From assembly GCA_050015895.1 (NCBI GenBank), contig JBEKAN010000002.1, forward strand, positions 1 through 39,792: a stretch of 39,792 nucleotides of DNA, in the 5' to 3' direction. Shown here piece after piece: positions 1,122-19,355 of this stretch. Positions within the stretch are counted from its first letter, which is position 1. The number at the start of each line of letters is the position of its first letter. The translations under genes and the position numbers were made by a program. This DNA is from Verrucomicrobiota bacterium. Lineage in GTDB: Bacteria; Verrucomicrobiota; Verrucomicrobiia; Limisphaerales; Palsa-1400. The notes beneath the pieces were generated by a model. It made no database searches. It saw nothing but the letters and a program-made list of their open reading frames with translations, and had not been told where the DNA came from.

Positions 1122-1152
1122 GCGCGCAATTTGAGATTTGAAGGTTGCAACC

Positions 1153-3576: not shown

Positions 3577-3606
3577 GAAGGCTGTTTCAAACGTGAAAGG
3601 AGAAAT

Positions 3607-6054: not shown

Positions 6055-8498
6055 GCGGAAAATATGAAAGCGGAAACTTGAAACCAGCAATCTCCAAAAC
6101 AACCTCGGACGGAAAAAGCGCGCAAGCCTTGCCGGTGGTGTGCGTTTGCGTTTTTCTGGCGCTGGCGGTTCTGGCTGTGTTTGGACAAACGGGGCGGTTC
6201 GAGTTTGTGAATTATGACGACCCGGAGAATGTGTATGAAAACCCGGTGGTGCAAAAGGGGTTGTCCGCGCACGCGGTGGGCTGGGCCTTCACGCACACGC
6301 AACTCGCAAACTGGATTCCTCTGACCACTCTTTCCCATATCCTGGACTGCCAGCTCTTCGGGTTGAACGCGGGCGGGCATCACCTGGTCAATGTGTTCTG
6401 GCACGCCGCCAGCGCGGTGCTGCTCTTCCTGGTGTTGCGGCGGATGACCGGCGGCCTATGGCGGAGCGCGTTTGTGTCGGCGGTGTTCGCCGTCCACCCG
6501 CTGAGGGCGGAGTCGGTGGCGTGGGTGTCGGAGCGCAAGGACGTGCTGAGCGCGTTTTTCTTCATGTTGACAATCGGGGCTTATGTGGGGTACGTGGAAA
6601 AGCAGAAAGCAGAAACTAGAAAGCAGAAATTTTATTATGCGCTGGCTGTGGTGTTTTTCGCGCTGGGTCTGATGGCGAAGAGCATGGTGGCCACGCTGCC
6701 CTTCGTGCTGTTGCTTCTGGATTACTGGCCGCTGGGAAGGATGAGGGGAATGAAGAATTCAGAAATTAGAACGCAGAATGGGGAAAGCAAAGAGCGGAAA
6801 GCAGATGGAGGAGAGGAGGGAGGCGAGGGGGTTCCGTTTTGGGGGTTGGTGAGGGAGAAGATTCCGCTGTTCGCGCTGGGCGCGGCGGCGTGCGCGGCGG
6901 CGGCCCTGGCGCCGGGACTGGTGGTGACAAAGCACATCCACGGGCTTCCGCTCCTGGAGCGCATCGGCAACGCCCTGGTTTCCTATGTGGTGTATCTGCG
7001 GCAAATGGTTTTCCCGGCGCGATTGGCCATCCCTTATCCGTTGGTCCCAAACGGTCAGCCGCCCTGGAAAGTCTGCCTGGCGTTTGCGGCGCTGGCGGCC
7101 ATCTCCGCCGCGGTGGTGGCCTGCCGGAAGAAGCGCCCCTGGCTGCTGACGGGCTGGCTCTGGTATGTGGGAATGCTGGCGCCGGTCATTGGGATCGTCC
7201 AAATCTCCTCCGACGCCGCCCATGCCGACCGGTACACCTATCTGCCCGGCATCGGTTTGGTTGTGGCGGCGACGTGGGCCTTGGCGGATTGGGGCGCGGG
7301 CTGGAAATATCGGCGCGGGATCTTTGGCGTTTTGATGGTGGCGGTGATTGGCGCGCTGCTGGTATTCGCATGTATCCAGGCTTCCTATTGGAAAAAGGGC
7401 GAAACGCTGTGGAATCGCGCGCTGGAATGCACCACCGGCAACAGCACCGCCCATAACAACCTGGGGGTGTGCTACGACCACGAGGGAAAGCTGGAGGACG
7501 CCATCGCGCAATACAAACTGGCTGTGGGAATCAAGCCCGATTACTGGGACGCCCATTTCAACATGGGAGTTGTTCTTGTCAAGAAGAGCGACACGGATGG
7601 GGCCATCGCGGAATACCAGAAGGCCGTGGAGATCAACCCCGACTACATGGAAGCGCACCTCGGCCTGGGCAATGCTCTGGCGCTCAAGGGCGAAGTGGCG
7701 GAAGCCATCGCGCAATACCAACAAGCCCTGGCGATCGCCCCCGACGACGCCGACGCCCGCTACAACCTGGGCAACGCCCTTGTCCAGCATGGCAAAGTGG
7801 ACGATGCAGTGGCCCAATACCGCAAGGCGCTGGAGATCAAACCCGATTACCTGCAAGCCCGCTCCAACCTGGGCAATGCTCTCAAGCTCCAGGGGGATCT
7901 GGAAGGGGCAATCGCGGAATACCGGAAAGTGCTCGATCTGAACCCGGCATACGAAAAAGCCCGCGACAATTTGGCGTTTACTCTTCTATCGAAAGGAGAT
8001 GTGGAGGGAGCCATTGTGTGCTATCAGCAGGGGATCAAAATCAACCCGCGCTCGGCGGACGCCTGGGCCAATCTGGGCCTGGCTTTCTTCAAGGAAGGGC
8101 AAACCCGGGAGGCCGTGGACGCCTGGCAAAAGGCCCTGAAAATCAAGCCCGACCAACTCTACGTTCTGAACAACCTGGCGTGGTTGCTGGCCACGACGCC
8201 CGACTCCGCCCTCCGCGACGGGGCCAAAGCCGTCGCGCTGGCCAAAGAGGCCGGACAGTTGGGCGGGGACGCCAATCCGATGATCCAGCACACCCTGGCG
8301 GCGGCTTACGCCGAGACGGGGAATTACGGGCTGGCGGCCGCCACGGCCCAGCGCGGTTTGGAGCTGGCGGTGGAGCAAAAGAACGACAAGCTGGCCGCCA
8401 CGTTGCAAAAGGAAATCCAACTCTACCAGGCGGGCAAGCCGGCGCGGGAGAGCACCCCGCAGGCAAGCCCTCCAACCGCGCCGGACGCGCCGCGGTGA
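6051..8498 (+). CDS. Type-B (alpha subtype) paralogue: TMTC/DUF1736-like GT-C membrane domain plus TPR block plus conserved C-terminal module
   Basis: The body frame is open from GTG 6051, which overlaps the upstream stop as GTGA. An alternative start is TTG 6078 (LKPAISK). Motifs: FEFVNYDDPENVYENP (first-loop DD), GGHHLVNVFWHAASAVLLFLVLRRMTG, and AVHPLRAESVAWVSERKDVLSAFFF (DUF1736/TMTC signature). TPRs run from about NSTAHNNLGVCYDHEGKLEDAI. The part of tracked ORF 5655..8498 upstream of 6051 is an out-of-frame reading of the previous gene. Confidence 0.85.
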   Translation: MSGKYESGNLKPAISKTTSDGKSAQALPVVCVCVFLALAVLAVFGQTGRFEFVNYDDPENVYENPVVQKGLSAHAVGWAFTHTQLANWIPLTTLSHILDCQLFGLNAGGHHLVNVFWHAASAVLLFLVLRRMTGGLWRSAFVSAVFAVHPLRAESVAWVSERKDVLSAFFFMLTIGAYVGYVEKQKAETRKQKFYYALAVVFFALGLMAKSMVATLPFVLLLLDYWPLGRMRGMKNSEIRTQNGESKERKADGGEEGGEGVPFWGLVREKIPLFALGAAACAAAALAPGLVVTKHIHGLPLLERIGNALVSYVVYLRQMVFPARLAIPYPLVPNGQPPWKVCLAFAALAAISAAVVACRKKRPWLLTGWLWYVGMLAPVIGIVQISSDAAHADRYTYLPGIGLVVAATWALADWGAGWKYRRGIFGVLMVAVIGALLVFACIQASYWKKGETLWNRALECTTGNSTAHNNLGVCYDHEGKLEDAIAQYKLAVGIKPDYWDAHFNMGVVLVKKSDTDGAIAEYQKAVEINPDYMEAHLGLGNALALKGEVAEAIAQYQQALAIAPDDADARYNLGNALVQHGKVDDAVAQYRKALEIKPDYLQARSNLGNALKLQGDLEGAIAEYRKVLDLNPAYEKARDNLAFTLLSKGDVEGAIVCYQQGIKINPRSADAWANLGLAFFKEGQTREAVDAWQKALKIKPDQLYVLNNLAWLLATTPDSALRDGAKAVALAKEAGQLGGDANPMIQHTLAAAYAETGNYGLAAATAQRGLELAVEQKNDKLAATLQKEIQLYQAGKPARESTPQASPPTAPDAPR
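6600..6627 (+). repeat. Heptanucleotide tandem repeat AAGCAGA x4 (third copy AACTAGA) inside a type-B loop
   Basis: Read directly: aagcaga aagcaga aactaga aagcaga, encoding KQKAETRKQK. A 2-copy version lies at 11868-11881. Confidence 0.85.
6748..6781 (+). repeat. AT-rich degenerate heptamer tract (GAATNNA)x5, diverged copy, in the loop after LLLLDYWPLGR
   Basis: gaatgaa gaattca gaaatta gaacgca gaatgg, encoding GMKNSEIRTQNGE. Confidence 0.8.
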
Positions 8499-11071
8499 GC
8501 GGAAAATTTGAAAGCGGAAACTTGAAACCAGCAACCTCAACAGCGACCCCGGAGGCAAGAAGCCCGCAGGCCTTGCCGGTGGTCTGCGTTTGCGTTTTTC
8601 TGGTGCTGGCGGTTCTGGCCGTCTTTTGGCAGACGGCGCATTTTCAGTTTATCAATTGCGATGATCAACGCTATGTGTATGAGAACTCCAAGTTTGGCGG
8701 CGGCCTGAGCATGGGGAGTGTCGTCCGGGCCTTCACTCATGCGGAGTGCGGCCTCTACCACCCGCTGACCATGATCTCCCTGATGGTGGATTACGATTTC
8801 CACGGGGTTCAGGCCGGCGGCTATCATCTGACCAATGTCCTGGTCCACGCGCTTTCCGGGGTCGTGCTGTTTCTGATTTTGCGGCGGATGACCGGGGCGC
8901 TTTGGCGAAGCGCGTTTGTGGCGGCGGTGTTTGCCATCCACCCGCTGCGGGTCGAATCGGTGGCCTGGGTGGCGGAGCGCAAGGACGTGCTGGGCGCTTT
9001 TTTCTTCCTGCTCACGGTCGGCGCCTACGTCCGCTATGTCCGCGATCCAAGCTCCCGGGGGCGTTACTGGACGGTGGCGGGTTTGTTCGTGTTGGGCCTG
9101 TTGTCCAAGCCGACGGCGGTGACCCTGCCGTTTGTGCTGTTGCTGCTGGATTACTGGCCGCTGGGGAGGATGGGGGGAATGAAGAATTTAGAATTTAGAA
9201 TGCAGAATGGGGAAAACAAAGAGCGGAAAGCAGATGGACGAGAGGAGGAAAGCGAGGGGTTTCCATTTTGGGGGTTGGTGAGGGAGAAGATGCTGCTGTT
9301 CGCGCTGGCGGCGGCGGCGTGCGTTGTCACCGTTTTTGCGGCGAGGCAGGGGGGCGGTCCCACAGCCAGCCTTCCGGTGTCCGCGCGGGTCGGCAACGCC
9401 CTGGTCTCCTACGTGGTCTATCTGCGCCAGACGGTGTGGCCGGCAAGGCTGGCGGCCTTTTATCCCTATCCGCGGAATAGCCGGCCACTTTGGGAAATCG
9501 CGCTGGCGGTTCTCCTGCTGGCGGGCATTTCTGGAGGGGCGCTGGCGCTGAGGCGCAGCCGGCCGTGGCTGGTTGTCGGCTGGCTCTGGTATTTGGGGAC
9601 GCTGGTTCCGATGATCGGCCTGATTCCATCGGGCGACTTTGCGCACGCGGACCGCAACACCTACCTGCCGCAGATCGGCGTGTGCGTGATGCTGACTTGG
9701 GCGCTGGCCGGGATGTCCGAGGGATGGCGTCACCGCCGTTGGATTCAAGGCGGAGTTTCGACGGCGGTTCTTGGGCTTTTGATGCTTTGCGCGCGGCAGC
9801 AGACCTCCTTTTGGCGCGAGAGCGAGTCGCTTTGGAGACACACACTTTCCCGCACCTCCGGGAACCTCTTCGCCCTCAACAACCTGGGCGGGGTTCTGGA
9901 GCAGAAAGGGGAGTTGGACAAAGCCATCGAGCAGTACGGAAAAGCGCTGGAAATCAAGCCCGACGACGCGGAGTCCCGAAACAACTTGGGCACGGCTCTG
10001 GCGCAGGAGGGAAAGCTGGAGGAGGCCGTCGCGCAATACCAAAAGGTTCTCGAGGCCAATCCCGACTATGAATATGCCCGCAACAACTTGGCGGTCGCTC
10101 TGGCCAGAAAGGGGAATCTGGAGGAGGCGATCGCGCAATACCGGAAAGTTCTGGAGACGCATCCCAATAGTGAGGACGCCCGAAACAACCTGGGAGCCGC
10201 TCTGGCGCAAAAGGGAAATCTGGAGGAGGCCGTCCTGCAATATCGCAAGGCTGTGGAACTCAATCCGGATTATGCGCAAGCCCGCCGCAATTTGGGGAAC
10301 GCTCTTTCCGCCCAGGGAGATCTGGAGGGGGCCGCCGCGCAGCTTCGCAAGGCCCTGGAACTCAATCCCGATCACCTGGGGACCCTCCTGGACCTCGGCA
10401 ACGTCCTCCTGCAAAAAGGAGATTTGGACGGCGCGATGGCCATTCTCCAAAAAGCCACCGCCGCAACCCCGGAGCTTCTGCAAGCATGGTATAATCTCGG
10501 CAATGCATTTCTGCAAAGCGGGGAATTGGACCACGCCATCGCGTGCTACCGGCACGTCGAAAAAATCAACCCGCGCTCGGCGGACGCCCGCGCCAATTTG
10601 GGAGTGGCTTTCCTCCTGAAAGGAGAAACCCAGGAGGCCAGGGACGCCTGGCAAAAGGCTTTGGAAATCAAGCCCGACCAACTCTATGTTCTGAACAACC
10701 TGGCGTGGTTGCTGGCCACGACACAGGACGCGGCGCTGCGCGACGGGGCCAAAGCCGTCGCGCTGGCCAAAGAGGCCGGGCAGGTGGGCGGGGATGAAAA
10801 TCCGGCACTCCCGCGCACCCTGGCGGCGGCTTACGCCGAGACGGGGAATTATGGGCTGGCGGCCGCCACGGCCCGGCGCGGTTTGGAGTTGGCGGTGGAG
10901 CAAAAGAACGACAAGCTGGCCGCCACGCTGCAAAAGGAAATCCAACTCTACGGGGCGGGCAAGCCGGTGCGGGAAAGCGCCGCACAGGCAAGCCAGATGG
11001 AACAACAGAAGGAAGCGGCCCAACGGGGCGAGCCAGCGGCGCCGGACGCGCCGCGGCAGGCGGGAAATTGA
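8495..11071 (+). CDS. Type-B (beta subtype) paralogue: TMTC/DUF1736-like GT-C domain plus TPR block plus conserved C-terminal module
   Basis: GTG 8495 overlaps the upstream stop (GTGA); an alternative start is TTG 8522. Motifs: FQFINCDD, YHPLTMISLMVDYDFHG, GGYHLTNVLVHALSGVVLFLILRRMTG, AIHPLRVESVAWVAERKDVLGAFFF. About nine TPRs. The C-terminal module plus an extra tail QMEQQKEAAQRGEPAAPDAPRQAGN. Stop TGA at 11069-11071. Confidence 0.85.
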   Translation: MSGKFESGNLKPATSTATPEARSPQALPVVCVCVFLVLAVLAVFWQTAHFQFINCDDQRYVYENSKFGGGLSMGSVVRAFTHAECGLYHPLTMISLMVDYDFHGVQAGGYHLTNVLVHALSGVVLFLILRRMTGALWRSAFVAAVFAIHPLRVESVAWVAERKDVLGAFFFLLTVGAYVRYVRDPSSRGRYWTVAGLFVLGLLSKPTAVTLPFVLLLLDYWPLGRMGGMKNLEFRMQNGENKERKADGREEESEGFPFWGLVREKMLLFALAAAACVVTVFAARQGGGPTASLPVSARVGNALVSYVVYLRQTVWPARLAAFYPYPRNSRPLWEIALAVLLLAGISGGALALRRSRPWLVVGWLWYLGTLVPMIGLIPSGDFAHADRNTYLPQIGVCVMLTWALAGMSEGWRHRRWIQGGVSTAVLGLLMLCARQQTSFWRESESLWRHTLSRTSGNLFALNNLGGVLEQKGELDKAIEQYGKALEIKPDDAESRNNLGTALAQEGKLEEAVAQYQKVLEANPDYEYARNNLAVALARKGNLEEAIAQYRKVLETHPNSEDARNNLGAALAQKGNLEEAVLQYRKAVELNPDYAQARRNLGNALSAQGDLEGAAAQLRKALELNPDHLGTLLDLGNVLLQKGDLDGAMAILQKATAATPELLQAWYNLGNAFLQSGELDHAIACYRHVEKINPRSADARANLGVAFLLKGETQEARDAWQKALEIKPDQLYVLNNLAWLLATTQDAALRDGAKAVALAKEAGQVGGDENPALPRTLAAAYAETGNYGLAAATARRGLELAVEQKNDKLAATLQKEIQLYGAGKPVRESAAQASQMEQQKEAAQRGEPAAPDAPRQAGN
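9177..9210 (+). repeat. AT-rich heptamer tract GAATGAA GAATTTA GAATTTA GAATGCA GAATGG
   Basis: Read directly. About 30% GC inside a gene of about 62% GC. Encodes GMKNLEFRMQNGE. The 34-mer is identical at 14200 and 16527. Confidence 0.85.
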
Positions 11072-13476
11072 AGGCGGAGAACTTGAAACCAGCAACCTCA
11101 ACAGCGACCCCGGAGGCAAGAAGCCCGCAGGCCTTGCCGGCGTTCTGCATTTGCATTTTTCTGGCGCTGGCGGTTCTGGCCGTCTTTTGGCAGACGGCGC
11201 ATTTTGAGTTCGTCAATTACGATGACGAAAAGAATGTGTATGAGAACCCGGTGGTGCAAAAGGGGTTGTCCCTCAACGCGGTGGGCTGGGCCTTCACGCA
11301 CTTGCAAGTCGCCAACTGGATTCCCCTGACCACTCTCTCGCATATCCTGGACTGCCAGCTCTTCGGGTTGCATGCGGGCGGGCATCACCTGGTCAATGTG
11401 TTCTGGCACGCCGCCAGCGCGGTGCTGCTGTTCCTGGTGTCGCGGCGGATGACCGGCGCCCTCTGGCGGAGCGCGTTTGTGGCGGCGGTGTTCGCCGTCC
11501 ACCCGCTGCGGGCGGAGTCGGTGGCGTGGGTGTCGGAGCGCAAGGACGTGCTGAGCGCGTTTTTTTTCATGTTGACAATTGGAGCTTATGTCCGGTTTGT
11601 GGAAAAGCAGAAAGCATCCGCCTCCGCCAAGGCCACGGCGGACAAGACGGCGGACAGAGAAAGCAGAGATTGGAACAACAGGACGAATTGCGCCATTCGG
11701 CGCGGGCGGAGATTTTATTATACCCTGGCTTTGGTGTTTTTCGCGCTGGGACTGCTGGCCAAGAGCATGGTGGCCACGCTGCCCTTTGTGCTGTTGCTGC
11801 TGGATTACTGGCCGCTGGGAAGGATGAGGGGAATGGAGAATTTAGAATTTAGAATGCAGAATGGGGAAAGCAGAAAGCAGAAACCGGTCAGAGGAGAGGC
11901 GGGAAGCGAGGGGGTTCCGTTTTGGGGGTTGGTGAGGGAGAAGATTCCGTTCTTCGCGCTGGGGGCGGGAGTGTGCGTGGCGACGGCCCTGGCGCCGGGA
12001 CTGGTGGTCCGGAACACCCATGCGGCGCCACTCCCGGAACGCGCCGCCAACGCCCTGGTTTCTTGCGCGGTGTATCTGCGGCAAATGGTGTTCCCGGCGA
12101 ATTTGGCGACGCCTTATCCCAATCCCCCAAACGGTCAGCCGCCCTGGGAAGTCTGCCTGGCGTTTGCCGTATTGGCCGCCATCTCCGCGGCGGTGGTCGT
12201 GTGCCGGAAAAAGCGGCCCTGGCTGCTGATGGGCTGGCTCTGGTATCTGGGGATGGTGTTTCCGGTGATTGGGATCATTCAAATCTCCCCCGACACCGCG
12301 CATGCCGACCGCTACACGTATCTGCCGCAGATCGGTCTGGCGCTGGCGGGGACCTGGGCGGTGGCGGAATGGGGCGCGGGGTGGAAATATCGGCGCGAGA
12401 TTTTTGGCGCCTTGATGATCGCGGTGGTGGGCGCGTTGATGGTGTGCGCCCACCGCCAGACCTCGTATTGGCAGGACCCCGAATCCCTCTGGACGCGGGC
12501 GCTGGCCCGCACCTCCAACAACAGCGTCGCACACAATAACATCGGCCACGCTCTGTTCCAAAAGGGCAAGCTGGAGGAGGCCGTCGGCCACTACAAACAG
12601 GCCCTCGAAATCAATACCAATTATGCGCAGGCCCATTACAATCTGGGGGTGGTTTGTCTCAAGCAGAATGACACGGACGGCGCGATCGCGGAATTCATAA
12701 GGGCCATGCGGGTCAGGCCGGACTACATGGAGGCCCACTTCGACCTCGGCACGGCTCTGGCCCTCAAGGGCGATCTGGACGAGGCCATCCTGGAGTACAA
12801 AACGGCCCTGGAGATTGAGCCGGATTTTGTGCAGGCCAATTACAATCTGGGCAAGGCCCTTCTCCTCAAAGGGGATGTGGACCCAGCCATGTCTTGTCTG
12901 TCCAAGACCATCCCTGTGAGCCAGGACCCGCTGGCGAATTGGTACAACTTCGGCAACGGATTCCTCCAAGAACCGGATCCCTCGTGCGCCATCGTCTGCT
13001 ACCGGCAGGCGATAAAAATCAACCCCCGCTTTGCGGACGCTTACGCCAATCTGGGAGTGGCTTTGTCCCAGAAAGGGGAAACCAAAGAGGCCCTGGACTC
13101 GTGGCAAAAGGCCTTGGAAATCAATCCCGCCCAGATCTATGTCCAAAACAACCTGGCGTGGTCGCTGGCGACAACTCCCGACGCCACCCTGCGCAACGGC
13201 GCAAAAGCCGTCGCGCTGGCGACCCAGGCCAACCAGTCGAGCGGGAGCGGCAATCCGGCGATATTGCGCACGCTGGCGGCGGCTTATGCCGAGACGGGGG
13301 ATTGCGCGCGGGCGGCCACAACGGCGCGGCGCGCCCTGGAGTTGGCGCAGGGGCGGAAGAACGACGGGCTGGCGGCCACGTTGCGGGAGGAACTCAAACT
13401 CTACCAGGCGGGCAAGCCGGCGCGGGACATCCCGCCGAAGGAAAACAAGCCCACAGCGCCGGACGCGCCGCCGTGA
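11068..13476 (+). CDS. Type-B (alpha subtype) paralogue: TMTC/DUF1736-like GT-C domain plus TPR block plus conserved C-terminal module
   Basis: TTG 11068 overlaps the upstream stop as TTGA (MKAENLKPATSTATPEAR). Motifs: FEFVNYDDEKNVYENPVVQKGLS, ANWIPLTTLSHILDCQLFGLHAGGHHLVNVFWH, AVHPLRAESVAWVSERKDVLSAFFF. A variable loop KASASAKATADKTADRESRDWNNRTNCAIRRGRRFYY. TPRs and the C-terminal module are present. Stop at 13474-13476. Confidence 0.88.
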   Translation: MKAENLKPATSTATPEARSPQALPAFCICIFLALAVLAVFWQTAHFEFVNYDDEKNVYENPVVQKGLSLNAVGWAFTHLQVANWIPLTTLSHILDCQLFGLHAGGHHLVNVFWHAASAVLLFLVSRRMTGALWRSAFVAAVFAVHPLRAESVAWVSERKDVLSAFFFMLTIGAYVRFVEKQKASASAKATADKTADRESRDWNNRTNCAIRRGRRFYYTLALVFFALGLLAKSMVATLPFVLLLLDYWPLGRMRGMENLEFRMQNGESRKQKPVRGEAGSEGVPFWGLVREKIPFFALGAGVCVATALAPGLVVRNTHAAPLPERAANALVSCAVYLRQMVFPANLATPYPNPPNGQPPWEVCLAFAVLAAISAAVVVCRKKRPWLLMGWLWYLGMVFPVIGIIQISPDTAHADRYTYLPQIGLALAGTWAVAEWGAGWKYRREIFGALMIAVVGALMVCAHRQTSYWQDPESLWTRALARTSNNSVAHNNIGHALFQKGKLEEAVGHYKQALEINTNYAQAHYNLGVVCLKQNDTDGAIAEFIRAMRVRPDYMEAHFDLGTALALKGDLDEAILEYKTALEIEPDFVQANYNLGKALLLKGDVDPAMSCLSKTIPVSQDPLANWYNFGNGFLQEPDPSCAIVCYRQAIKINPRFADAYANLGVALSQKGETKEALDSWQKALEINPAQIYVQNNLAWSLATTPDATLRNGAKAVALATQANQSSGSGNPAILRTLAAAYAETGDCARAATTARRALELAQGRKNDGLAATLREELKLYQAGKPARDIPPKENKPTAPDAPP
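11831..11864 (+). repeat. AT-rich heptamer tract GAATGGA GAATTTA GAATTTA GAATGCA GAATGG
   Basis: One substitution relative to the 9177 copy; followed immediately by AAGCAGA x2 (11868-11881). Confidence 0.85.
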
Positions 13477-13508
13477 GCGGGCCATTTGCAATCGGAGAGC
13501 GGAATCCA

Positions 13509-15785
13509 ATGCGCCGAACATCCAAGCCAGCCACGGGAGGGAAAGAAGCGCGCGCGGCCCCGTCGGCAAGCCGTCCGGCGGGCTTGGCGGAAGGCTGGAC
13601 GGTTCTCGCCGTCTGCCTTTTTCTGGTGGCTGTCATCTGGGTGGTCTTTGGGCGGACGACGCGCTTCGGGTTCGTCAATTACGATGACGGGACCTACGTG
13701 TCGGACAACGCCCTGGTCACGGGCGGTCTGACCCCGCGGGGCGTCGCATGGGCGTGGACTCATGTGATCTGCAATTTCTATCACCCGCTGACCATGCTCT
13801 CGCTGATGCTGGATTTTCAATTTCACAAGCTCAACGCCGGCGGGTATCACCTCACCAATGTCCTGATACACACCGCCTCCTCCGTCCTGCTGTTCCTGGT
13901 TTTGAGGCGGATGACCGGCGCGCTCTGGCGCAGCGCGTTTGTGGCGGCGGTGTTCGCCATCCACCCGCTGAGGGCGGAGTCGGTGGCGTGGGTGACGGAG
14001 CGCAAGGATGTGCTGGGCGCGTTCTTTTTCATGCTCACGCTCGGGGCTTATGTGCGGTATGCGCGCAAACCGAACTCCCTGGGTCGCTATCTGGCGGTGG
14101 TGGCGCTCTTCGGGTTGGGGCTGCTCTGCAAGCCGACGGCGGTGACCCTGCCGTTTGTGCTGTTGCTGCTGGATTACTGGCCGCTGGGAAGGATGGGGGG
14201 AATGAAGAATTTAGAATTTAGAATGCAGAATGGAGAAAGAGGAGAGCACGGAAGGCCCGGGGTTCCGTTTTGGGGGTTGGTGAGGGAGAAGATTCCCTTG
14301 CTGGCGCTGGCGGCGGTTTCCTGCGTGGTGGCTTACTTTGCGCAAGGGAAGGCGGTCGAGTCCGTCGCATACGCTTCCATCCCCACGCGGATCGGCAATG
14401 TTTTGATTTCCTACGTGGTCTATCTGCGCCAGTTGGTGTGGCCGGCGGATCTGGCCGTGTATTATCCCTATCCGCAGAAAAGCCCCGCACTTGGGGAAGT
14501 CGCTTTGGCGTTTCTGCTGCTGGCCGTCATTTCCGCGGGAGTTTTGGCCTCTTTCCGAAAGCGCCCCTGGCTTCTAACCGGCTGGCTTTGGTATTTGGGA
14601 ATGCTGGTTCCGGTCATCGGCATTGTTCTGGTCACGCCAACCGCGCACGGGGATCGCAACACCTACTTGCCCCACATCGGCCTGGCTGTGCTGCTGACTT
14701 GGGCGGTGTGCGACATCTCCGCCGGCTGGCGTCACCGCCGCGCGCTCCTGGGCGCGTTGGCCGCCGGCGCGCTGGTTGCCCTGGTTCTCCTCGCCCGCGC
14801 GCAGACTTCTTACTGGCATGACAGCGAATCCCTGTGGAGGCGCGCGCTGGACCGCACTTCCGACAACCCCGCCGCGCACAACGGCCTGGCGACGGCTCTC
14901 CGCGACAAGGGGGATGTGGACGGAGCCATAGCCGAATACCGAAAAGCCCTGGCGCTCAATCCCTACTATGGGGAGAGCTTCGTCAATTTGGGCGTGGCTC
15001 TGGCGCTCAAGGGGGATCTGGACGGAGCCATCGCGCAATACCAACAAGCCCTCCAGATCAAGCCCGACTATATGGAAGCCCACTTTGATCTGGGCACGGC
15101 GCTGGGACTCAAGGGCAGTCTCGATGAGGCAGTCGCCCAATTCCGCAAGGTCTTGGAACTGAGGCCCGATTATCCGCGGGCCGACTACAATCTGGGCAAG
15201 GTCCTCCTCCTCAAAGGAGATTTGGACCCGGCCATGGACTGTCTGGCCAAAACCACCGCGGTGAGCCAGGACCCCCTGGCAAATTGGTACAACTTCGGCA
15301 ACCAATTCGTGCAAGAACGGGATTGGCAATGCGCCATTGTCTGCTATCGGCAGGCGACGAAAATCAATCCCCGCTTTGCGGACGCTTACGCGAATCTGGG
15401 CGTGGCTTTGTCCCAGAAAGGGGAAACCAAAGAGGCCCTGGACTCGTGGCAAAAGGCCTTGGAAATCAACCCCGGCCAGCTCTATGTGCAGAACAACTTG
15501 GCGTGGTCGCTGGCCACGACCGCCGACGCCTCCCTGCGCAACGGCGCAAAAGCCGTCGCGCTGGCCCAACAGGCGGAGCATCTGAGCGGGGGCGGCAATC
15601 CGGCGATTCTGCGCACCCTGGCGGCGGCGTACGCCGAGACGGGGGATTATGCGTCCGCGGCCTCGACGGCCCGGCGCGCCCTTCAGTTGGCGGTGGCGCA
15701 GAAGAACGAAGGGCTGGCCGCGACGCTGCAAAAGGAAATCCAACTCTACGACGCGGCCAAGCCGGCGCGGGAGACGCCGCCGTGA
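13509..15785 (+). CDS. Type-B (beta subtype) paralogue: TMTC/DUF1736-like GT-C domain plus TPR block plus conserved C-terminal module
   Basis: In-frame ATG at 13509 (MRRTSKPATGG); an in-frame GTG at 13473 overlapping the upstream stop is the alternative. Motifs: FGFVNYDDGTYVSDN, FYHPLTMLSLMLDFQFHKLNAGGYHLTNVLIH, AIHPLRAESVAWVTERKDVLGAFFF. TPRs and the C-terminal module are present. Stop TGA at 15783-15785. Confidence 0.85.
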   Translation: MRRTSKPATGGKEARAAPSASRPAGLAEGWTVLAVCLFLVAVIWVVFGRTTRFGFVNYDDGTYVSDNALVTGGLTPRGVAWAWTHVICNFYHPLTMLSLMLDFQFHKLNAGGYHLTNVLIHTASSVLLFLVLRRMTGALWRSAFVAAVFAIHPLRAESVAWVTERKDVLGAFFFMLTLGAYVRYARKPNSLGRYLAVVALFGLGLLCKPTAVTLPFVLLLLDYWPLGRMGGMKNLEFRMQNGERGEHGRPGVPFWGLVREKIPLLALAAVSCVVAYFAQGKAVESVAYASIPTRIGNVLISYVVYLRQLVWPADLAVYYPYPQKSPALGEVALAFLLLAVISAGVLASFRKRPWLLTGWLWYLGMLVPVIGIVLVTPTAHGDRNTYLPHIGLAVLLTWAVCDISAGWRHRRALLGALAAGALVALVLLARAQTSYWHDSESLWRRALDRTSDNPAAHNGLATALRDKGDVDGAIAEYRKALALNPYYGESFVNLGVALALKGDLDGAIAQYQQALQIKPDYMEAHFDLGTALGLKGSLDEAVAQFRKVLELRPDYPRADYNLGKVLLLKGDLDPAMDCLAKTTAVSQDPLANWYNFGNQFVQERDWQCAIVCYRQATKINPRFADAYANLGVALSQKGETKEALDSWQKALEINPGQLYVQNNLAWSLATTADASLRNGAKAVALAQQAEHLSGGGNPAILRTLAAAYAETGDYASAASTARRALQLAVAQKNEGLAATLQKEIQLYDAAKPARETPP
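14200..14233 (+). repeat. AT-rich heptamer tract, identical to the 9177 copy
   Basis: gaatgaagaatttagaatttagaatgcagaatgg, read directly. Confidence 0.85.
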
Positions 15786-15799
15786 GGAGCAACTGAAAT

Positions 15800-18115
15800 T
15801 TGAAAGCGGAAAGCGCCATTTTGAAACCGGCGAATCCGGATGGGACGCGGAGGGCAAATATCCCACAAGTGTGGCTGGCGCCGGGCGTTTGCGTCTTTCT
15901 GGTCCTCGCGGTTCTGGGCGTGTTTGCGCAGACGGCGCGGTTCGACTTCATCAATTACGACGACGGGTTGAACGTGAGTCAGAACCCGGTGGTGCGGAAG
16001 GGGTTGTCCGTCCAGGCGGTGGGCTGGGCCTTTGCTCATCCGCAGGCGGCCAACTGGGTGCCTCTGACCACTCTTTCGCATATCCTGGATTGCCAGCTCT
16101 TCGGGTTGCATGCGGGCGGGCATCACTTGGTCAATGTGTTCTGGCACGCCGCCAGCGCGGTGCTGCTGTTCCTGGTGTTGCGGCGGATGACCGGCGCCCT
16201 CTGGCGGAGCGCGTTTGTGGCGGCGGTCTTCGCCGTGCATCCCTTGCGGGCGGAGTCGGTGGCGTGGGTGTCGGAGCGCAAGGACGTGTTGAGCGCGTTT
16301 TTTTTCATGTTGACAATCGGCGCTTATGTCCGGTTTGTGGAAAAGCGGAAAGAACAAAGCGGAGATTGGAACAACAGGACGAATTGCGCCATTCAGCGCG
16401 GGCGGAGATTTTATTATACGCTGGCATTGGTGTTTTTCGCGCTGGGACTAATGGCCAAGAGCATGGTGGCCACGCTGCCCTTTGTGCTGTTGCTGCTGGA
16501 TTACTGGCCGCTGGGGAGGATGGGGGGAATGAAGAATTTAGAATTTAGAATGCAGAATGGAGAAAGAGGAGAGCAGGGAAGGCCCGGGGTTCCGTTTTGG
16601 GGGTTGGTGAGGGAGAAGATTCCGATGTTCGCGATGGCGGCGGCAGTGTGCGTGGCGACGGCGCTCATGCCGGGTATGGTGCTCGGGGACGCCCAACGAC
16701 TGGCGCTCGCGGACCGCGTCGGCAACGCCCTGGTTTCCTATGGGGTCTATCTGCGGCAAATGATTTTCCCGGCGCGACTGGCCATCCCCTACCCCATCGC
16801 GCCCACTGGTCAGCCGCCGTGGAAGGTCTGTCTGGCGTTGGTCATTTTGGCCGCAATTTCCGCGGGGGTCATTGCGTTTCGGAAGAAACGTCCCTGCCTG
16901 CTGACCGGCTGGCTCTGGTACCTGGGAATGTTGGTCCCGGTCATCGGCATCCTCCAAATCTCCAAGGATTCCGCCCATGCCGACCGCTACACCTATCTGC
17001 CACAGATCGGATTGGCGCTGGCGGGGACTTGGGCGGTGGCGGATTGGAGCGCGGGCTGGAAATATCGGCGCGAGATTTTGGGCGCGTTGATGACGGCGGT
17101 CATCGCGGCGTTGATGGTGTCCGGCCATCGCCAGACATCGTATTGGAAAGACAGCGAATCGCTCTGGACTCACACCCTTTCCTGCACCTCCTCCAACATG
17201 GTGGCCTGCGACAACCTGGCCGCCGATCTGGCCCAGAAGGGCCGCTTGAATGATGCCATCGCGCAATACCAAAACGCGCTGGAAATCGCGCCCGATGACG
17301 AGGGCACGCGAAACAACCTGGGGGCCGCACTTTTTCTCAACAACGATCTGGAGGGGGCCATCGCCCAATACCGAAAAGTCATCGAGTTGAATCCCGCCTA
17401 CGAAAACGCCCACTGCAATCTGGGGATTGCCCTGGCGCGAAAGGGAAACGTGGAGGAGGCCATCGCGCAATACAGAGAAGCCCTGGATCTCAAGCCGGAC
17501 GATGAGTCGGCGCTCAGGAACCTGGGCGACGCTCTTCTCAAGTCCGGCCAACTGGACGAGGCCCCCGCCCAATACCGCAAGGCCCTGGACCTGAATGCCG
17601 AGGACGAGGAGGCCCGCTCGAACCTCGGCAGAGCCTTGCTGCAAAAGGGGGATTTGGAACAAGCCATTGTGTGCTATCAGCAGACGTTAAAACTAAACCC
17701 CCGCTCGGCGGACGCATACGACAATCTCGGCCTGGCTTACTTCAAGAAATCGGAAATCAAGCGGGCCGTGGACGCATGGCAGCAGGCGCTGCAAATCAAG
17801 CCCGACCAACTCTACGTTCTGAACAACCTGGCGTGGCTGCTGGCCACGACCGCCGACGCCTCGCTCCGCGATGGCGCAAAAGCCGTCGCGCTGGCCAAAC
17901 GGGCCGACCAGTTGAGCGGGGGCGGCGATCCGATGATCCTGCACACCCTGGCGGCCGCTTGCGCCGAGACGGGGAGTTATGAGCTGGCGGCCGCCACGGC
18001 GCGGCGCGGTTTGGAGTTGGCGGTGGCGCAAAAGAACGACGCGCTGGCCGCGACGCTGCAAAAGGAAATCAAACTCTACGAGTCGGGCAGCCCGGCGCGG
18101 GATCCGGCGCGATGA
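15800..18115 (+). CDS. Type-B (alpha subtype) paralogue: TMTC/DUF1736-like GT-C domain plus TPR block plus conserved C-terminal module (last gene of the array)
   Basis: TTG at 15800 (MKAESAILKPANPDG), 14 nt after the upstream stop. Motifs: FDFINYDDGLNVSQNPVVRKGLS, GGHHLVNVFWHAASAVLLFLVLRRMTG, AVHPLRAESVAWVSERKDVLSAFFF. TPRs and NNLAWLLATTADASLRDGAKAVALAKRADQLSGGGDP are present. Stop TGA at 18113-18115. Confidence 0.88.
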   Translation: MKAESAILKPANPDGTRRANIPQVWLAPGVCVFLVLAVLGVFAQTARFDFINYDDGLNVSQNPVVRKGLSVQAVGWAFAHPQAANWVPLTTLSHILDCQLFGLHAGGHHLVNVFWHAASAVLLFLVLRRMTGALWRSAFVAAVFAVHPLRAESVAWVSERKDVLSAFFFMLTIGAYVRFVEKRKEQSGDWNNRTNCAIQRGRRFYYTLALVFFALGLMAKSMVATLPFVLLLLDYWPLGRMGGMKNLEFRMQNGERGEQGRPGVPFWGLVREKIPMFAMAAAVCVATALMPGMVLGDAQRLALADRVGNALVSYGVYLRQMIFPARLAIPYPIAPTGQPPWKVCLALVILAAISAGVIAFRKKRPCLLTGWLWYLGMLVPVIGILQISKDSAHADRYTYLPQIGLALAGTWAVADWSAGWKYRREILGALMTAVIAALMVSGHRQTSYWKDSESLWTHTLSCTSSNMVACDNLAADLAQKGRLNDAIAQYQNALEIAPDDEGTRNNLGAALFLNNDLEGAIAQYRKVIELNPAYENAHCNLGIALARKGNVEEAIAQYREALDLKPDDESALRNLGDALLKSGQLDEAPAQYRKALDLNAEDEEARSNLGRALLQKGDLEQAIVCYQQTLKLNPRSADAYDNLGLAYFKKSEIKRAVDAWQQALQIKPDQLYVLNNLAWLLATTADASLRDGAKAVALAKRADQLSGGGDPMILHTLAAACAETGSYELAAATARRGLELAVAQKNDALAATLQKEIKLYESGSPARDPAR
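16527..16560 (+). repeat. AT-rich heptamer tract, identical to the 9177 copy
   Basis: gaatgaagaatttagaatttagaatgcagaatgg, read directly. Confidence 0.85.
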
Positions 18116-18143
18116 CCAGGCAGCCTGGAGCAGAAGAGAAGCT

Positions 18144-19355
18144 TTACTGTTTGACGAGCCGAAGCGCCAGCACATCGTGTCCCCGCACCTCGGCGCTCAA
18201 TGGCTCCCGCGTCGTGCCGAGATTCCTCTTCATCCACAGATCGCGGATTTTGTAGGAAGTGGTGTCGAATCTGGTTTCCCGGTTTGAAATGTCGTCGGCC
18301 ACTTTTTCGCTCTTCCAGTCGAAGACGAACTTCCGCGGGTCGGGGTTTCGGTTCAGAACGCACATCGCCCATGCGTCATGGGCCAGAGGCTTGAACCAAA
18401 CCTCAACGCCGTCTTTGGCCGAATACCGCAATGCCTCGATCCCAAGGGGGTCCTGGTCGAGCGCGATCACGTCCTTGTCCGTCAGAATTTTTAGCGTCTG
18501 CGGATTCATCCGGCGCAGATCGTTGCCGGAAATCAGCGGCGCGGCCAGCATGCACCACAGGGTGAAGTGCGCGCGGTCCTCGCTGTCCGTCATGCCGTTG
18601 CCCACCTCCAGCATGTCCGGGTCGTTCCAGTGGCCGGGGCCGGCGTATTTGCGCAAGGGGACCTGTTTGTCGAGGATTTCCATGACGCCGTAATCGCTGT
18701 ATCCGGGGTGCGCGCGATTTTTGTCGAAACTGGCGTAAATGTCGCCGGTGGTGCGCCAGGACTGCCCCACATCTTTGGCCCAGGTCCAGGGCTGGCTGTT
18801 GCCCCATTCGCACAGGCTGAAGAAGATGGGCCGTCCGGCGGCGCGGAGGGCGTCGCTCATTTTCTTGTAGGCGTCCGGCGCTTTGAGGCCCTGGACATTG
18901 CACCAGTCGTATTTGAGATAATCCACCCCCCAGGACGCGTAGGTCTTCGCGTCCTGGAACTCATGGTCCCGGCTGCCGGGCCGCCCGGCGCAGGTCTTTG
19001 TGCCGGCGTCCGAATAAATTCCGAACTTGAGTCCTTTGGAGTGAACGTAGTCGGCCAGCGCCTTGATGCCGGAGGGAAACCGTTTTGGATCCGCCGTGAT
19101 GTTCCCCGCCGCGTCACGCTCCCCCTGCCAGAGGTCGTCGAGGTTGACGTATTGGTATCCCGCCTCTTTCATGCCGTTGGTCGCCATCGCGTCGGCGATT
19201 TGGCGGACCAACTGCTCGCTGACCTGGCCTTGGAATTTATTCCAACTGTTCCAGCCCATCGGCGGGGTCAGCCCCAGTTGCCCGGACTTCGGGGCGCGCC
19301 CGCTGACGCAGCCGGCGCAGGCCGAACAGATGACAATCCAAAGAATTGGTCTCAT
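18144..19355 (-). CDS. GH27 alpha-galactosidase (secreted)
   Basis: Motifs: [59 protein letters not shown]. The likely start is the ATG at 19355 ([16 protein letters not shown] signal-like N-terminus) rather than the ORF maximum at 19430. This ATG overlaps the upstream stop as ATGA. Confidence 0.9.

What the first reader, a model, noticed from the sequence alone, without database searches (positions are those of the whole stretch)
6748..16560. Conserved AT-rich heptanucleotide-repeat insert (GAATNNA)x5 at the same loop of all five type-B genes
Seen: immediately after the codons for LLLLDYWPLGRMxG, every type-B gene contains GAATGAA GAATTTA GAATTTA GAATGCA GAATGG. The loci are 9177-9210, 14200-14233 and 16527-16560 (identical), 11831-11864 (one substitution) and 6748-6781 (diverged). 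This is about 30% GC inside genes of about 62% GC, and it encodes GMKNLEFRMQNGE. A 7-nt unit is not a multiple of three, so gain or loss of one unit would frameshift the gene after its catalytic N-terminal half. Inference, alternatives: (a) a slipped-strand contingency switch that turns individual paralogues on or off; (b) a protein- or RNA-binding or recombination site maintained by gene conversion; (c) a domesticated dispersed repeat. From memory only and unverified, similar AGAAT-rich heptamer tracts turn up in other Verrucomicrobiota sequences. The exact identity of a non-optimal, compositionally alien 34-mer across diverged paralogues argues for selection on the DNA or RNA itself, not just the peptide.
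Basis: partly seen in the sequence, partly recalled or inferred. Interest (0 to 1): 0.65.

Follow-up and report, generated by a model that had tools for sequence, protein, structure and literature searches.

The report
Translated heptanucleotide repeat in membrane-protein loop
Five neighbouring copies of a membrane sugar-transferase gene each carry, in a floppy loop, a short run of 7-letter DNA repeats read as protein; similar runs occur in many bacterial phyla, their role is unknown, and here they show no sign of acting as an on/off switch.

Summary
The 34-mer sits at the five stated places (three exact, 1 and 3 mismatches), is 29% GC and encodes GMKNLEFRMQNGE. It is the clearest part of a 63-84 nt degenerate period-7 array. 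The array lies in a disordered loop of five tandem GT-C glycosyltransferase + TPR paralogues.

More than half of the best homologues (66 of 118) lack the insert. Others carry period-7 arrays with quite different units at the same loop and at a second loop about 35 codons upstream. In the nearest clade, loop lengths step by 7 residues (21 nt, three units). All 206 homologous loops examined are in frame. Contigs from eight peat or wetland metagenomes and an independent assembly show no indels. I therefore rate an on/off contingency switch unlikely.

Identity among the paralogues fits gene conversion. Identical patches of 38-80 nt occur throughout the genes, and the loop's indel grouping disagrees with the flanks. 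However, the tract is also better conserved between genomes than silent sites, with mostly non-synonymous changes. Constraint on the DNA or RNA is therefore not excluded.

(AATGCAG)n arrays occur in many phyla, often as polar hairpins and often in frame inside unrelated genes. Their function is unknown.

The parts
6051..8498 (+). Gene B1: N-terminal GT-C-fold membrane glycosyltransferase domain plus C-terminal TPR domain
   Evidence: ORF and start by the 4-nt GTGA overlap with the upstream stop. TPR domain by Pfam on paralogues B3 and B5. Paralogue alignment.
8495..11071 (+). Gene B2, paralogue of subtype ii (grouped with B4)
11068..13476 (+). Gene B3, paralogue of subtype i (grouped with B1 and B5)
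13473..15785 (+). Gene B4, paralogue of subtype ii
15800..18115 (+). Gene B5, paralogue of subtype i. This is the protein modelled: GT-C fold, with the insert in a low-confidence coil.
6748..6831 (+). B1 loop-2 heptanucleotide array, about 12 units. The first 34 nt are the diverged copy of the 34-mer.
   Evidence: Lag-7 identity 0.58, no shuffle reaches it.
9177..9260 (+). B2 loop-2 array, about 12 units: GAATGAA GAATTTA GAATTTA GAATGCA GAATGGG, then degenerate GAAAACA..GAGGGGT. Exact 34-mer at 9177-9210.
11831..11914 (+). B3 loop-2 array, about 12 units. TRF reports 7.4 copies. It continues as AAAGCAG AAAGCAG.
   Evidence: Lag-7 identity 0.68.
14200..14262 (+). B4 loop-2 array, about 9 units. 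It lacks 21 nt (3 units) relative to B1-B3.
16527..16589 (+). B5 loop-2 array, about 9 units, with the same 21-nt deletion as its neighbour B4.
9131..9300 (+). Block of near-zero synonymous divergence among the paralogues, given in B2 coordinates with equivalents in the other four genes. It runs from the LLLLDYWPLGR codons through the array to GLVREK..FALAAA.
   Evidence: Codon identity at identical residues is 0.93-1.0 here against about 0.4-0.6 elsewhere. 9149-9208 is the most invariant 60-nt window of the whole gene. B2/B5 share an 80-nt identical run at 9131-9210.
6599..6629 (+). Second, independent heptanucleotide array (AAAGCAG)x4.4 in the preceding loop of B1. It encodes KQKAETRKQK.
   Evidence: TRF. 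The same loop carries period-7 arrays in many homologues.
11682..11712 (+). 31-nt element GACGAATTGCGCCATTCGGCGCGGGCGGAGA in loop 1 of B3. A similar sequence lies in loop 2 of a homologue on L282.
16378..16408 (+). Second copy of the same 31-nt element, in loop 1 of B5.

Best explanation
The 34-mer is the best-preserved part of a short, degenerate tandem array of 7-nt units (GAATNNA; AATGCAG in the phase used for relatives). The array lies in frame in a disordered loop between two transmembrane helices of a GT-C-fold glycosyltransferase + TPR protein. I infer that the loop is cytoplasmic.

Shown:
- It is an insert that most close homologues lack.
- The same loop, and the loop before it, carry period-7 arrays of unrelated unit sequence in many relatives.
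- All examined copies stay in frame.
- Loop lengths in the nearest clade differ by 7 residues (21 nt, three units).
- GAATNNA/AATGCAG arrays occur in many phyla, between genes and in frame within unrelated genes.

Inferred:
- The array arose or arrived as one arm of such a repeat element.
- It changes length by strand slippage, and only three-unit changes survive selection for an intact protein.
- It is tolerated because the loop is structurally permissive.
- The near-identity of the five copies comes from gene conversion between the tandem paralogues, not from a function peculiar to this 34-mer.
- In its present imperfect form (only two identical adjacent units) it is not a working on/off switch.
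For: Insert status: 66 of 118 homologues have a loop of at most 14 residues.

Disordered loop in a GT-C fold: the AF2 model has pTM 0.85, with the insert as coil at pLDDT 54-62. Foldseek gives AglB, Pmt4, PglB, ArnT and DPY19 at probability 1.0.

Period-7 specificity: of 184 homologous loops of at least 42 nt, 27 have a strongly self-similar 28-nt window, and 26 of those 27 are at lag 7. In 963 kb of related loci, TRF at score >= 50 gives 42 arrays of period 7 and 18 of period 14, against at most 4 for any other period.

In frame: 206 of 206 loops.

Quantised lengths: 17, 24, 31 or 38 residues in 30 of 52 loops. The B1-3 versus B4-5 indel is 21 nt.

Close relatives in the same phase: (AATGCAG)x5 perfect in L286 and 14-unit arrays in L285.

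Gene conversion: the synonymous-identity block; the loop indel groups neighbours B4+B5 while the flanks group B1/3/5 against B2/4; identical runs of 38-80 nt at many places along the genes, permutation p <= 0.0075.

No length variants: the independent assembly L281 is 99.99% identical over 22,316 bases with 0 gaps, and contigs of 8 metagenomes show no indels.

No peptide constraint: by my count of the alignment, 8 non-synonymous and 3 synonymous changes in the tract.

Wide occurrence. The window's own aminotransferase gene has in-frame period-7 arrays at 39313-39352 and 39128-39148.
Against: The tract is more conserved than passive tolerance predicts. The 60 nt at 9149-9208 are the most invariant DNA of the whole gene among the five paralogues, 90% against a mean of 41%.

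Between two genomes the 36-nt tract is 0.86-0.97 identical while 4-fold sites are 0.58-0.66 identical. The comparison may involve non-orthologous paralogues, and it rests on about 12 codons.

Rare AT-rich codons persist in a GC-rich genome.

Repeated occupancy of the same two loops by unrelated units, and the strict polarity of paired (AATGCAG)n arrays (14:0), hint at a mechanism or function that simple slippage plus tolerance does not explain.

Within the window the periodicity of units 6-12 is not significant on its own.

Only assembled contigs were available, so low-frequency +-7 nt variants are untested. The loop's cytoplasmic location is inferred from helix order and the positive-inside rule.
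Confidence: 0.6

Rival explanations
1. Cis-acting nucleic-acid element under selection. The GAAT heptads, as DNA or as unstructured purine-rich mRNA, would be recognised by a protein that binds tandem 7-nt repeats. Alternatively they would act as a translational pause site (a rare-codon cluster after a transmembrane hairpin) or as a hotspot that starts gene conversion among the paralogues.
For: The tract is the most invariant DNA of the gene among the paralogues. It is more conserved between genomes than 4-fold sites, with few synonymous changes and retained rare codons. The AATnnAG phase is kept across relatives while the middle positions vary. The same units recur across phyla, and paired arrays have a fixed polarity of 14:0. 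The mRNA block is less structured than shuffles, z +1.4 and +2.4, so it would be accessible. The Geobacter metallireducens genome paper proposed that tandem heptanucleotide sites, within and between genes, bind global regulators (PMC2700814).
Against: No binding factor is known. There is no Rfam match and no promoter-like site at the tracts. Most homologues work without any insert. Units at the same loop differ completely between lineages. Gene conversion alone explains the within-genome identity. The between-genome comparison rests on about 12 codons and possibly on non-orthologous paralogues.
Confidence: 0.2
2. Slipped-strand contingency switch. Gain or loss of one 7-nt unit would frameshift individual paralogues after the N-terminal part, turning them on or off in the population.
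For: The unit length is not a multiple of three. The host genes are tandem paralogous glycosyltransferases, a typical class for phase variation. Quantised 21-nt length classes show that unit slippage has occurred over evolutionary time. Some relatives carry perfect (AATGCAG)x5 or longer arrays. Known precedents are the NeuO heptanucleotide repeats (PMC13001214) and the Haemophilus heptanucleotide repeats upstream of hmw1A (PMC8262952).
Against: Only two identical adjacent units are present here. None of 206 homologous loops is out of frame. An independent assembly and the contigs of 8 metagenomes show no indels. A third GAATTTA unit would bring a TAG stop into frame (read directly from the sequence).
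Confidence: 0.08
3. Peptide-level function. The hydrophilic heptad peptide would be a selected linker whose length tunes enzyme activity or partner binding, as reported for the NeuO repeat domain (from my own knowledge).
For: Loop length is quantised and always in frame. The insert persists across two genomes.
Against: Substitutions in the tract are mostly non-synonymous, 8 to 3, at roughly the neutral ratio. Peptides at this loop are unrelated between lineages: MQNAECR, IQNSEFR, KAESRKQ, LKTQNSK, STFNFQL. More than half of the homologues lack the insert. The region is modelled as a low-confidence coil.
Confidence: 0.07

Closest known systems
NeuO O-acetyltransferase heptanucleotide VNTR (E. 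coli K1; PMC13001214, listed, abstract only; repeat details from my own knowledge)
   Same: A 7-nt unit inside an ORF is translated through all three frames into a 7-residue peptide repeat. Only copy numbers that keep the frame give full-length enzyme. The host is a sugar-modifying enzyme.
   Different: In NeuO the repeats are near the 5' end of the gene and the tract is described as phase-variable. Here there are 5-12 imperfect units in an internal loop, no out-of-frame alleles were found, and no population variation was seen.
Rickettsia palindromic elements (RPEs), selfish repeats inserted in frame in protein-coding genes (papers listed, e.g. PMC1779305; the description here is from my own knowledge)
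   Same: Short dispersed repeats tolerated in frame at structurally permissive sites of otherwise conserved proteins. They also occur between genes. Relatives of the present arrays often form hairpins.
   Different: RPEs are palindromic elements of roughly 100-150 bp with a family-specific sequence and are not tandem 7-mers. The window copies have one arm only. The phylum range here is far wider.
Multicopy tandem-heptanucleotide elements of Geobacter metallireducens (PMC2700814)
   Same: [quoted passage not shown] Class 3 sites are pairs on opposite strands with consensus MTYCTGA. The reverse complement of its ATTCTGA form is TCAGAAT, a rotation of GAATTCA.
   Different: They were described in one deltaproteobacterial genome as putative global-regulator (IHF/HU) sites, without experimental test. 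No link to a particular protein loop or to reading frame was made.
Cyanobacterial short tandemly repeated repetitive (STRR) heptamers (from my own knowledge; the term appears in papers listed)
   Same: Tandem 7-nt arrays are dispersed in the genome and their function is unknown. The exact 27-mer AGAATTTAGAATTTAGAATGCAGAATG of the window occurs in Okeania, Symploca, Caldora, Dapis and Calothrix.
   Different: The classical STRR units are different sequences and lie between genes in AT-rich cyanobacterial DNA. Here the array is coding, in a 62% GC verrucomicrobial genome.
Simple-sequence-repeat contingency loci of Haemophilus and Neisseria (PMC2651432, PMC8262952, PMC5953494)
   Same: The unit length is not divisible by three, and the tract lies in a surface-glycan-related gene family.
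   Different: Those tracts are long, perfect and polymorphic, with many OFF alleles in sequenced genomes. None of this is seen here.

Membership tests
SSR-mediated phase-variable (contingency) locus | Long tract of identical tandem units whose length is not a multiple of three, in an ORF or promoter | tested here: not met
   The unit is 7 nt and lies in the ORF, but only two adjacent units are identical (GAATTTA x2). The other units differ.
SSR-mediated phase-variable (contingency) locus | Length polymorphism in unit steps among strains or populations, including out-of-frame alleles | tested here: not met
   0 of 206 homologous loops are out of frame. The independent assembly has 0 gaps. Contigs of 8 metagenomes show no indels. 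Caveat: contigs drop rare variants.
SSR-mediated phase-variable (contingency) locus | Measured reversible switching of expression | not testable with these tools
   Needs cultures or deep raw reads. No RNA runs were found.
NeuO-type translated heptanucleotide repeat | A 7-nt unit translated in all three frames into a 7-residue peptide period | tested here: met
   GAAT falls in all three codon phases in GMKNLEFRMQNGE. Relatives read MQNAECRMQNAE, IQNSEFRIQN and similar.
NeuO-type translated heptanucleotide repeat | Length classes differ by three units (21 nt), the only in-frame steps | tested here: met
   The B1-3 versus B4-5 indel is 21 nt. Loop lengths of 17/24/31/38 residues account for 30 of 52 loops.
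NeuO-type translated heptanucleotide repeat | Many perfect copies that vary between isolates, with an effect on enzyme activity | tested here: not met
   5-12 imperfect units and no variation between assemblies. The effect on activity is not testable here.
In-frame intragenic dispersed repeat (RPE-like) | The same repeat type at many loci, both between genes and inside unrelated genes | tested here: met
54 arrays lie in stop-free stretches of 400 aa or more, in proteins that by their motifs look like MetH, PheT, RluA, GatA and a Ser/Thr kinase. For the source genome only 40 kb is available; it holds other period-7 arrays in an aminotransferase gene.
In-frame intragenic dispersed repeat (RPE-like) | Palindromic (hairpin) architecture | tested here: not met
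   The window copies have no inverted partner: all matches are on the + strand. Roughly 30% of the (AATGCAG)n arrays elsewhere do have one.
In-frame intragenic dispersed repeat (RPE-like) | Located at a structurally permissive site, with the host protein otherwise intact | tested here: met
   Coil with pLDDT 54-62 between helices 221-235 and 266-289. Homologues without the insert are common. The ORFs are intact.
GT-C fold glycosyltransferase with TPR domain (PMT/TMTC-like) | GT-C membrane fold | tested here: met
   Foldseek matches AglB 3waj (E 2.4e-4), Pmt4 9i5k, PglB, ArnT and DPY19, probability 1.0, TM-score 0.35-0.50.
GT-C fold glycosyltransferase with TPR domain (PMT/TMTC-like) | Acidic motif in the first extracytoplasmic loop | tested here: met
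   F(V/I)NYDD directly after helix 1 in four of the five paralogues (B2 reads FINCDD). The second Asp is invariant and the first nearly invariant across 42 homologues.
GT-C fold glycosyltransferase with TPR domain (PMT/TMTC-like) | Match to the curated PMT/PMT_2 sequence models | tested here: not met
   No Pfam match for the N-terminal domains at E <= 1. There are only weak PMT_2 hits on B4 and on some homologues. No PDB sequence match.
GT-C fold glycosyltransferase with TPR domain (PMT/TMTC-like) | C-terminal TPR repeats | tested here: met
   Pfam TPR_11, TPR_1 and TPR_2 with E 1e-37 to 1e-72.
Cyanobacterial STRR | Intergenic heptamer arrays in (heterocystous) cyanobacteria | tested here: not met
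   The source is a peat Verrucomicrobiota population and the array is coding. Only the unit run is shared with cyanobacteria.

The most novel reading that the evidence does not exclude
GAATNNA/AATGCAG heptanucleotide arrays would form an undescribed class of element spread across many bacterial phyla. The arrays are single or paired, and pairs always read 5'-(AATGCAG)n..spacer..(CTGCATT)n-3'. Some dedicated machinery would generate, move or bind them (a hairpin-specific transposase, a repeat-adding polymerase or a heptad-binding protein). They would colonise permissive loops of proteins in frame. The five tracts in this window would be maintained copies, whose unusual conservation reflects that machinery or a cis function, rather than decaying passengers.
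Probability: 0.3. Interest if true: 0.75.

Novelty: new variant of a known kind. Interest (0 to 1): 0.5.

Why it matters
If the main reading holds, this is a clean case of protein loops being built from non-coding-style repeat DNA. A 7-nt array, filtered by reading frame into 7-residue steps, supplies variable linkers in a large family of bacterial GT-C glycosyltransferases. Annotators should recognise strings such as MQNAECRMQNAE or FCILHSAFCIL as translated repeats and not as protein motifs.

The wider pattern has no entry in Rfam (window region only) and no hit for these strings in the open literature searched. That pattern is one 7-nt unit family present in more than ten phyla, with fixed hairpin polarity and frequent in-frame residence in conserved genes. 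It may point to an unrecognised mobile or protein-bound repeat system comparable in reach to REP elements. It also gives a concrete test bed, five tandem paralogues with identical tracts, for asking whether short imperfect heptamer arrays slip at measurable rates in nature.

Tried and rejected
- **RNA structure:** the conserved block folds less stably than shuffles (z +1.42 and +2.37), so a structured RNA element is rejected.
- **Known RNA families:** nothing in Rfam near threshold, only two chance lncRNA hits at E about 0.9.
- **Internal promoter:** there is no sigma-70-like site at any tract.
- **Transcript evidence:** no RNA runs hold the locus.
- **Length variants:** two read-laying runs on 8 runs gave no indels, but all runs are Logan contigs, not reads.
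- **Naming the N-terminal domain by sequence:** Pfam at E <= 1 and a PDB profile search found nothing. The fold search was needed.
- **Source genome census:** the exact 27-mer is absent from Verrucomicrobiota representatives in genome contigs, so the source genome could not be surveyed.
- **P0017 contig look-up:** failed.
- **Chance or assembly artefact:** rejected, because a second assembly is identical and shuffles give no matches.
- **Literature:** searches for the repeat strings and for heptanucleotide repeats in Verrucomicrobia or Planctomycetes found no description.
Full report
**1. The observation**

The 34-mer GAATGAAGAATTTAGAATTTAGAATGCAGAATGG lies on the + strand at the five stated places. 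It is exact at 9177, 14200 and 16527, has one mismatch at 11831 and three at 6748. No dinucleotide-preserving shuffle gives a single match. A looser GAATNNAGAATNNAGAAT search finds only these five loci in the window, all on the + strand. The tract is 29% GC in DNA that is about 60-65% GC, and it encodes GMKNLEFRMQNG(E) directly after LLLLDYWPLGRMxG. Lag-7 self-identity over the first five units is 0.79, against 0.20-0.33 at other lags.

**2. The genes**

Seven co-directional genes fill 1138-18115. The two 'type A' genes are 1138-3576 and 3607-6054. The five 'type B' genes are B1 6051-8498, B2 8495-11071, B3 11068-13476, B4 13473-15785 and B5 15800-18115. B1 to B4 are joined to their upstream neighbours by 4-nt GTGA or TTGA overlaps.

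Where tested, the C-terminal half is TPR repeats. Pfam and a PDB profile search do not recognise the N-terminal half. An AlphaFold2 model of B5 residues 1-477 has pTM 0.85. It matches GT-C glycosyltransferases at probability 1.0: AglB, Pmt4, PglB, ArnT and DPY19. The acidic motif F(V/I)NYDD follows helix 1 in four of the five paralogues (B2 reads FINCDD), and the two Asp positions are invariant or nearly so across 42 homologues.

The insert (B5 residues about 241-265) is coil with pLDDT 54-62, between helices 221-235 and 266-289. From the order of helices, the N-in orientation of GT-C enzymes and the positive-inside rule, I infer that this loop and the preceding one are cytoplasmic. This was not tested.

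Homologues are very numerous: all 8000 scored candidates passed E <= 1e-10. The few that carry a source name are called Verrucomicrobiota or Limisphaerales. Relatives also occur in Planctomycetota, Desulfobacterota and Acidobacteriota MAGs. The source population occurs in peat and wetland metagenomes.

**3. What the tract is part of**

Read in the phase AATGAAG, each copy continues as a degenerate array. In B2 it reads AATGAAG AATTTAG AATTTAG AATGCAG AATGGGG AAAACAA AGAGCGG AAAGCAG, and so on. B1-B3 have about 12 units and B4/B5 about 9. The difference is one 21-nt indel, exactly three units. Inside the window the periodicity is significant for the whole arrays, but not for B2 units 6-12 taken alone (p = 0.23). 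That part rests on comparison with relatives.

Close relatives have clearer arrays in the same position and phase:
- (AATGCAG)x5 perfect in L286.
- Two 14-unit arrays in L285, running AATGCAG to AAAGCGG to AGAG.
- (AATTCAG)-type units in L201.
- AATGGAG AATTTGG AATTTAG AATGCAG in L282.

B1 has a second array, (AAAGCAG)x4.4 at 6599-6629, in the loop about 35 codons upstream.

**4. It is an insert, and the site is recurrent**

Of 118 close homologues with both anchors, 66 have a loop of at most 14 residues, 60 of them exactly 12, for example GRFQNLQQFLRLAREK. Another 41 have 20 residues or more.

In 160 related loci I found 206 loops of this kind. Of the 184 that are at least 42 nt long, 27 contain a 28-nt window that is at least 75% self-identical at some lag between 2 and 12. 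In 26 of those 27 the lag is 7. The units differ completely between lineages: GAATGCA, GAATTCA, GAAAGCG, AAAACTC, CAACTTT, CGGAGTT, GTCAGAG, GTGACAA, CAACCCT.

TRF on the same 963 kb, at score >= 50, gives 42 arrays of period 7 and 18 of period 14, against at most 4 for any other period. At score >= 36 there are 127 arrays of period 7 or 14. Of these, 34 lie in this loop, about 32 in the preceding loop, and the rest in other genes or between genes. Several are inverted pairs that would form hairpins. Examples are L133 GTCGAGC/CTCGACC, L164 GGTCAGT...CACTGAC and the intergenic L058.

The peptides are simply the three-frame translations of the units: MQNAECR, IQNSEFR, KAESRKQ, LKTQNSK, STFNFQL. 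The periodicity is therefore a property of the DNA and not of the protein.

**5. Switch or not**

- All 206 loops are in frame with the downstream EKxPLF anchor. The search would have reported the anchor in any frame.
- In the nearest clade (anchor PFWGLVxEK), loop lengths cluster at 17, 24, 31 and 38 residues (30 of 52). A second series runs 13, 20, 27. Length has therefore changed by unit slippage, but only three-unit steps are fixed.
- An independent JGI assembly of the same locus (L281) is 99.99% identical over 22,316 bases without a gap.
- Contigs of eight peat or wetland metagenomes show no inserted or missing letters anywhere in 6000-18200.
- Only two adjacent units are identical here, and a third GAATTTA would put TAG in frame.

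I conclude that the tract is not a working on/off switch. The reservation is that contigs cannot show rare alleles and no raw reads were available.

**6. Why the five copies are identical**

The paralogues are 67-78% identical in DNA overall. Codon identity at identical residues between the two subtypes (B1/3/5 against B2/4) is about 0.4-0.6 over most of the gene. It is 0.93-1.0 over about 165 nt, from LLLLDYWPLG through the array to GLVREK..FALAAA. Within this block the 21-nt indel groups the neighbours B4+B5, whereas the flanks group B1/3/5 against B2/4.

Identical runs of 38-80 nt occur between all pairs at many positions. Examples are B3/B4 68 nt in the TPR part, B2/B3 61 nt at the 5' end, and B2/B5 80 nt over the tract. 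All are longer than expected by permutation. Gene conversion among tandem paralogues is therefore general here, and it suffices for the exact identity.

First, 9149-9208 is the most invariant 60-nt window of the whole gene, 90% against a mean of 41% and against 80% at the best-conserved other motifs. Second, against two paralogues from another genome (L282) the 36-nt tract is 0.86-0.97 identical while 4-fold sites are 0.58-0.66 identical. By my count of that alignment the few changes are 8 non-synonymous to 3 synonymous. This argues against ordinary peptide constraint. It is compatible with nucleotide-level constraint, or with a younger shared origin of this segment. Orthology could not be established from a 6-kb contig.

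**7. Tests of a cis-acting role**

The block folds less stably than shuffled sequence (z +1.4 and +2.4), and the heptads are predicted unpaired. Rfam gives nothing. No promoter-like site lies at any tract. No RNA-seq run holds the locus. Nothing positive was found, but an accessible purine-rich stretch that binds a factor or slows ribosomes is not excluded.

**8. The wider phenomenon**

The phyla are Verrucomicrobiota, Planctomycetota, Acidobacteriota, Gemmatimonadota, Bacteroidota, Clostridia, Chloroflexota, Cyanobacteria, Fibrobacter, Lentisphaeria and Methylobacter.

Of 142 arrays, roughly 30% have an inverted partner within 200 nt. When both arms have at least 3 perfect units, the order is always 5'-(AATGCAG)n..(CTGCATT)n-3', 14 to 0. 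The spacers are 14-110 nt and mostly unrelated, apart from a shared spacer in two Bacteroidales genomes.

Fifty-four arrays lie in stop-free stretches of at least 400 aa. They read MQNAECRMQNAE, or FCILHSAFCIL on the other strand, inside unrelated proteins. By their motifs these look like MetH, PheT, RluA, GatA, a Ser/Thr kinase and a squalene-cyclase-like protein. Only three of the 54 are this glycosyltransferase loop.

The window's own 27-mer AGAATTTAGAATTTAGAATGCAGAATG occurs exactly in Okeania, Symploca, Caldora, Dapis and Calothrix, in one Clostridia MAG and in one Peribacteria MAG. There it lies in AT-rich DNA that does not look coding, and it is sometimes part of a hairpin.

The window also holds in-frame period-7 arrays of another unit in what looks like a DegT-type aminotransferase gene on the minus strand, at 39313-39352 and 39128-39148.

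The open literature searched does not contain these strings. The nearest description is in the Geobacter metallireducens genome paper. It lists 49 elements of four tandem heptanucleotides 'within genes ... as well as between genes'. It also lists paired opposite-strand sites of five tandem heptanucleotides, consensus MTYCTGA. The reverse complement of its ATTCTGA form is a rotation of GAATTCA. The authors proposed these as binding sites for global regulators (PMC2700814).

**9. Verdict**

The most likely account is a degenerate, translated heptanucleotide array that belongs to a widespread repeat class. It is tolerated in a disordered loop of a GT-C glycosyltransferase, changes length in three-unit steps, and is homogenised among five tandem paralogues by gene conversion (confidence about 0.6).

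A cis-acting DNA or RNA role is the main rival (about 0.2). A contingency switch (about 0.08) and a peptide role (about 0.07) are unlikely.

What generates 7-nt arrays in particular, why the same unit recurs across phyla with fixed polarity, and why these two loops are colonised so often all remain unexplained. These open questions are the reason for a middling rather than a low interest score.

Noticed in passing
window 39313-39352 and 39128-39148 (gene on the minus strand, 38999 to beyond 39790): What looks by its motifs like a DegT/DnrJ-type aminotransferase gene carries two in-frame period-7 arrays of a different unit. On the coding strand they read CCTCYGW x about 6 (peptide [14 protein letters not shown]) and CTCCGAA x3. 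The source genome therefore has translated heptamer arrays outside the glycosyltransferase family.
   Followed up: partly
window 6599-6629: (AAAGCAG)x4.4 lies in the loop before the one reported, in gene B1 only, and encodes KQKAETRKQK. The same loop (AYVRYVEK...FYYAL) carries period-7 arrays, often as inverted pairs, in many homologues.
   Followed up: yes
window 11682-11712 and 16378-16408; L282 loop after position 1049: A 31-nt element, GACGAATTGCGCCATTCRGCGCGGGCGGAGA, sits in loop 1 of B3 and B5 (peptide TNCAIRRGRR). A similar sequence (GACGGGCATTGCGCCACAGGCGCGGGCGGAGA) sits in loop 2 of a homologue from another genome. This looks like a second small dispersed element using the same loops.
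   Followed up: partly
window 11600-11690 (B3 loop 1); homologues P0014, P0046, L282 and L285: Peptides such as KASASAKATADKTADRE and ASSFAKATEDRES recur in loop 1 or loop 2 of several family members. They look like the translation of yet another repeat, not of period 7.
   Followed up: no
L287-L404 (genome-contig hits): Paired (AATGCAG)n arrays are always ordered 5'-(AATGCAG)n..spacer..(CTGCATT)n-3' (14 to 0). Spacers are 14-110 nt and mostly unrelated. Prevotella L287 and Bacteroidaceae L355 share the whole element, spacer included, and in L287 it is in frame in a gene that looks like MetH.
   Followed up: partly
window 6051/6054, 8495/8498, 11068/11071, 13473/13476: Successive genes overlap by 4 nt (GTGA or TTGA), which suggests translational coupling along the array. 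The 5' ends of B1/B2 and of B3 differ by one A in a GGAAA(A)C run, which shifts the usable start codon.
   Followed up: no
window 13057-13124 / 15402-15469, 8519-8579 / 11080-11140, and others: Identical patches of 56-68 nt between paralogues that are otherwise about 70% identical, in the TPR region and at the 5' ends. They indicate frequent gene conversion along the whole array and not only at the loop.
   Followed up: yes
Logan contig loose ends at window 14192 (run X3) and 6628 (run X10): Related genes in the same metagenomes continue from the same junctions into other heptamer arrays: GTGACAAGTGACAAGTGGCAGGTGACAAGA and GTCAAAAGGCAAATGGCAAAAGGCAAAT. Co-occurring relatives therefore carry different units at the same sites.
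   Followed up: no
window 6000-18200: Terminator-like hairpin plus T-run matches are about twice as frequent as in shuffles, 36 against 14.9 +- 4.3. Several recur at homologous positions of the paralogues, for example AAGGACGTGCTGAGCGCGTTTTT at 6537, 11542 and 16280, inside coding sequence.
   Followed up: no
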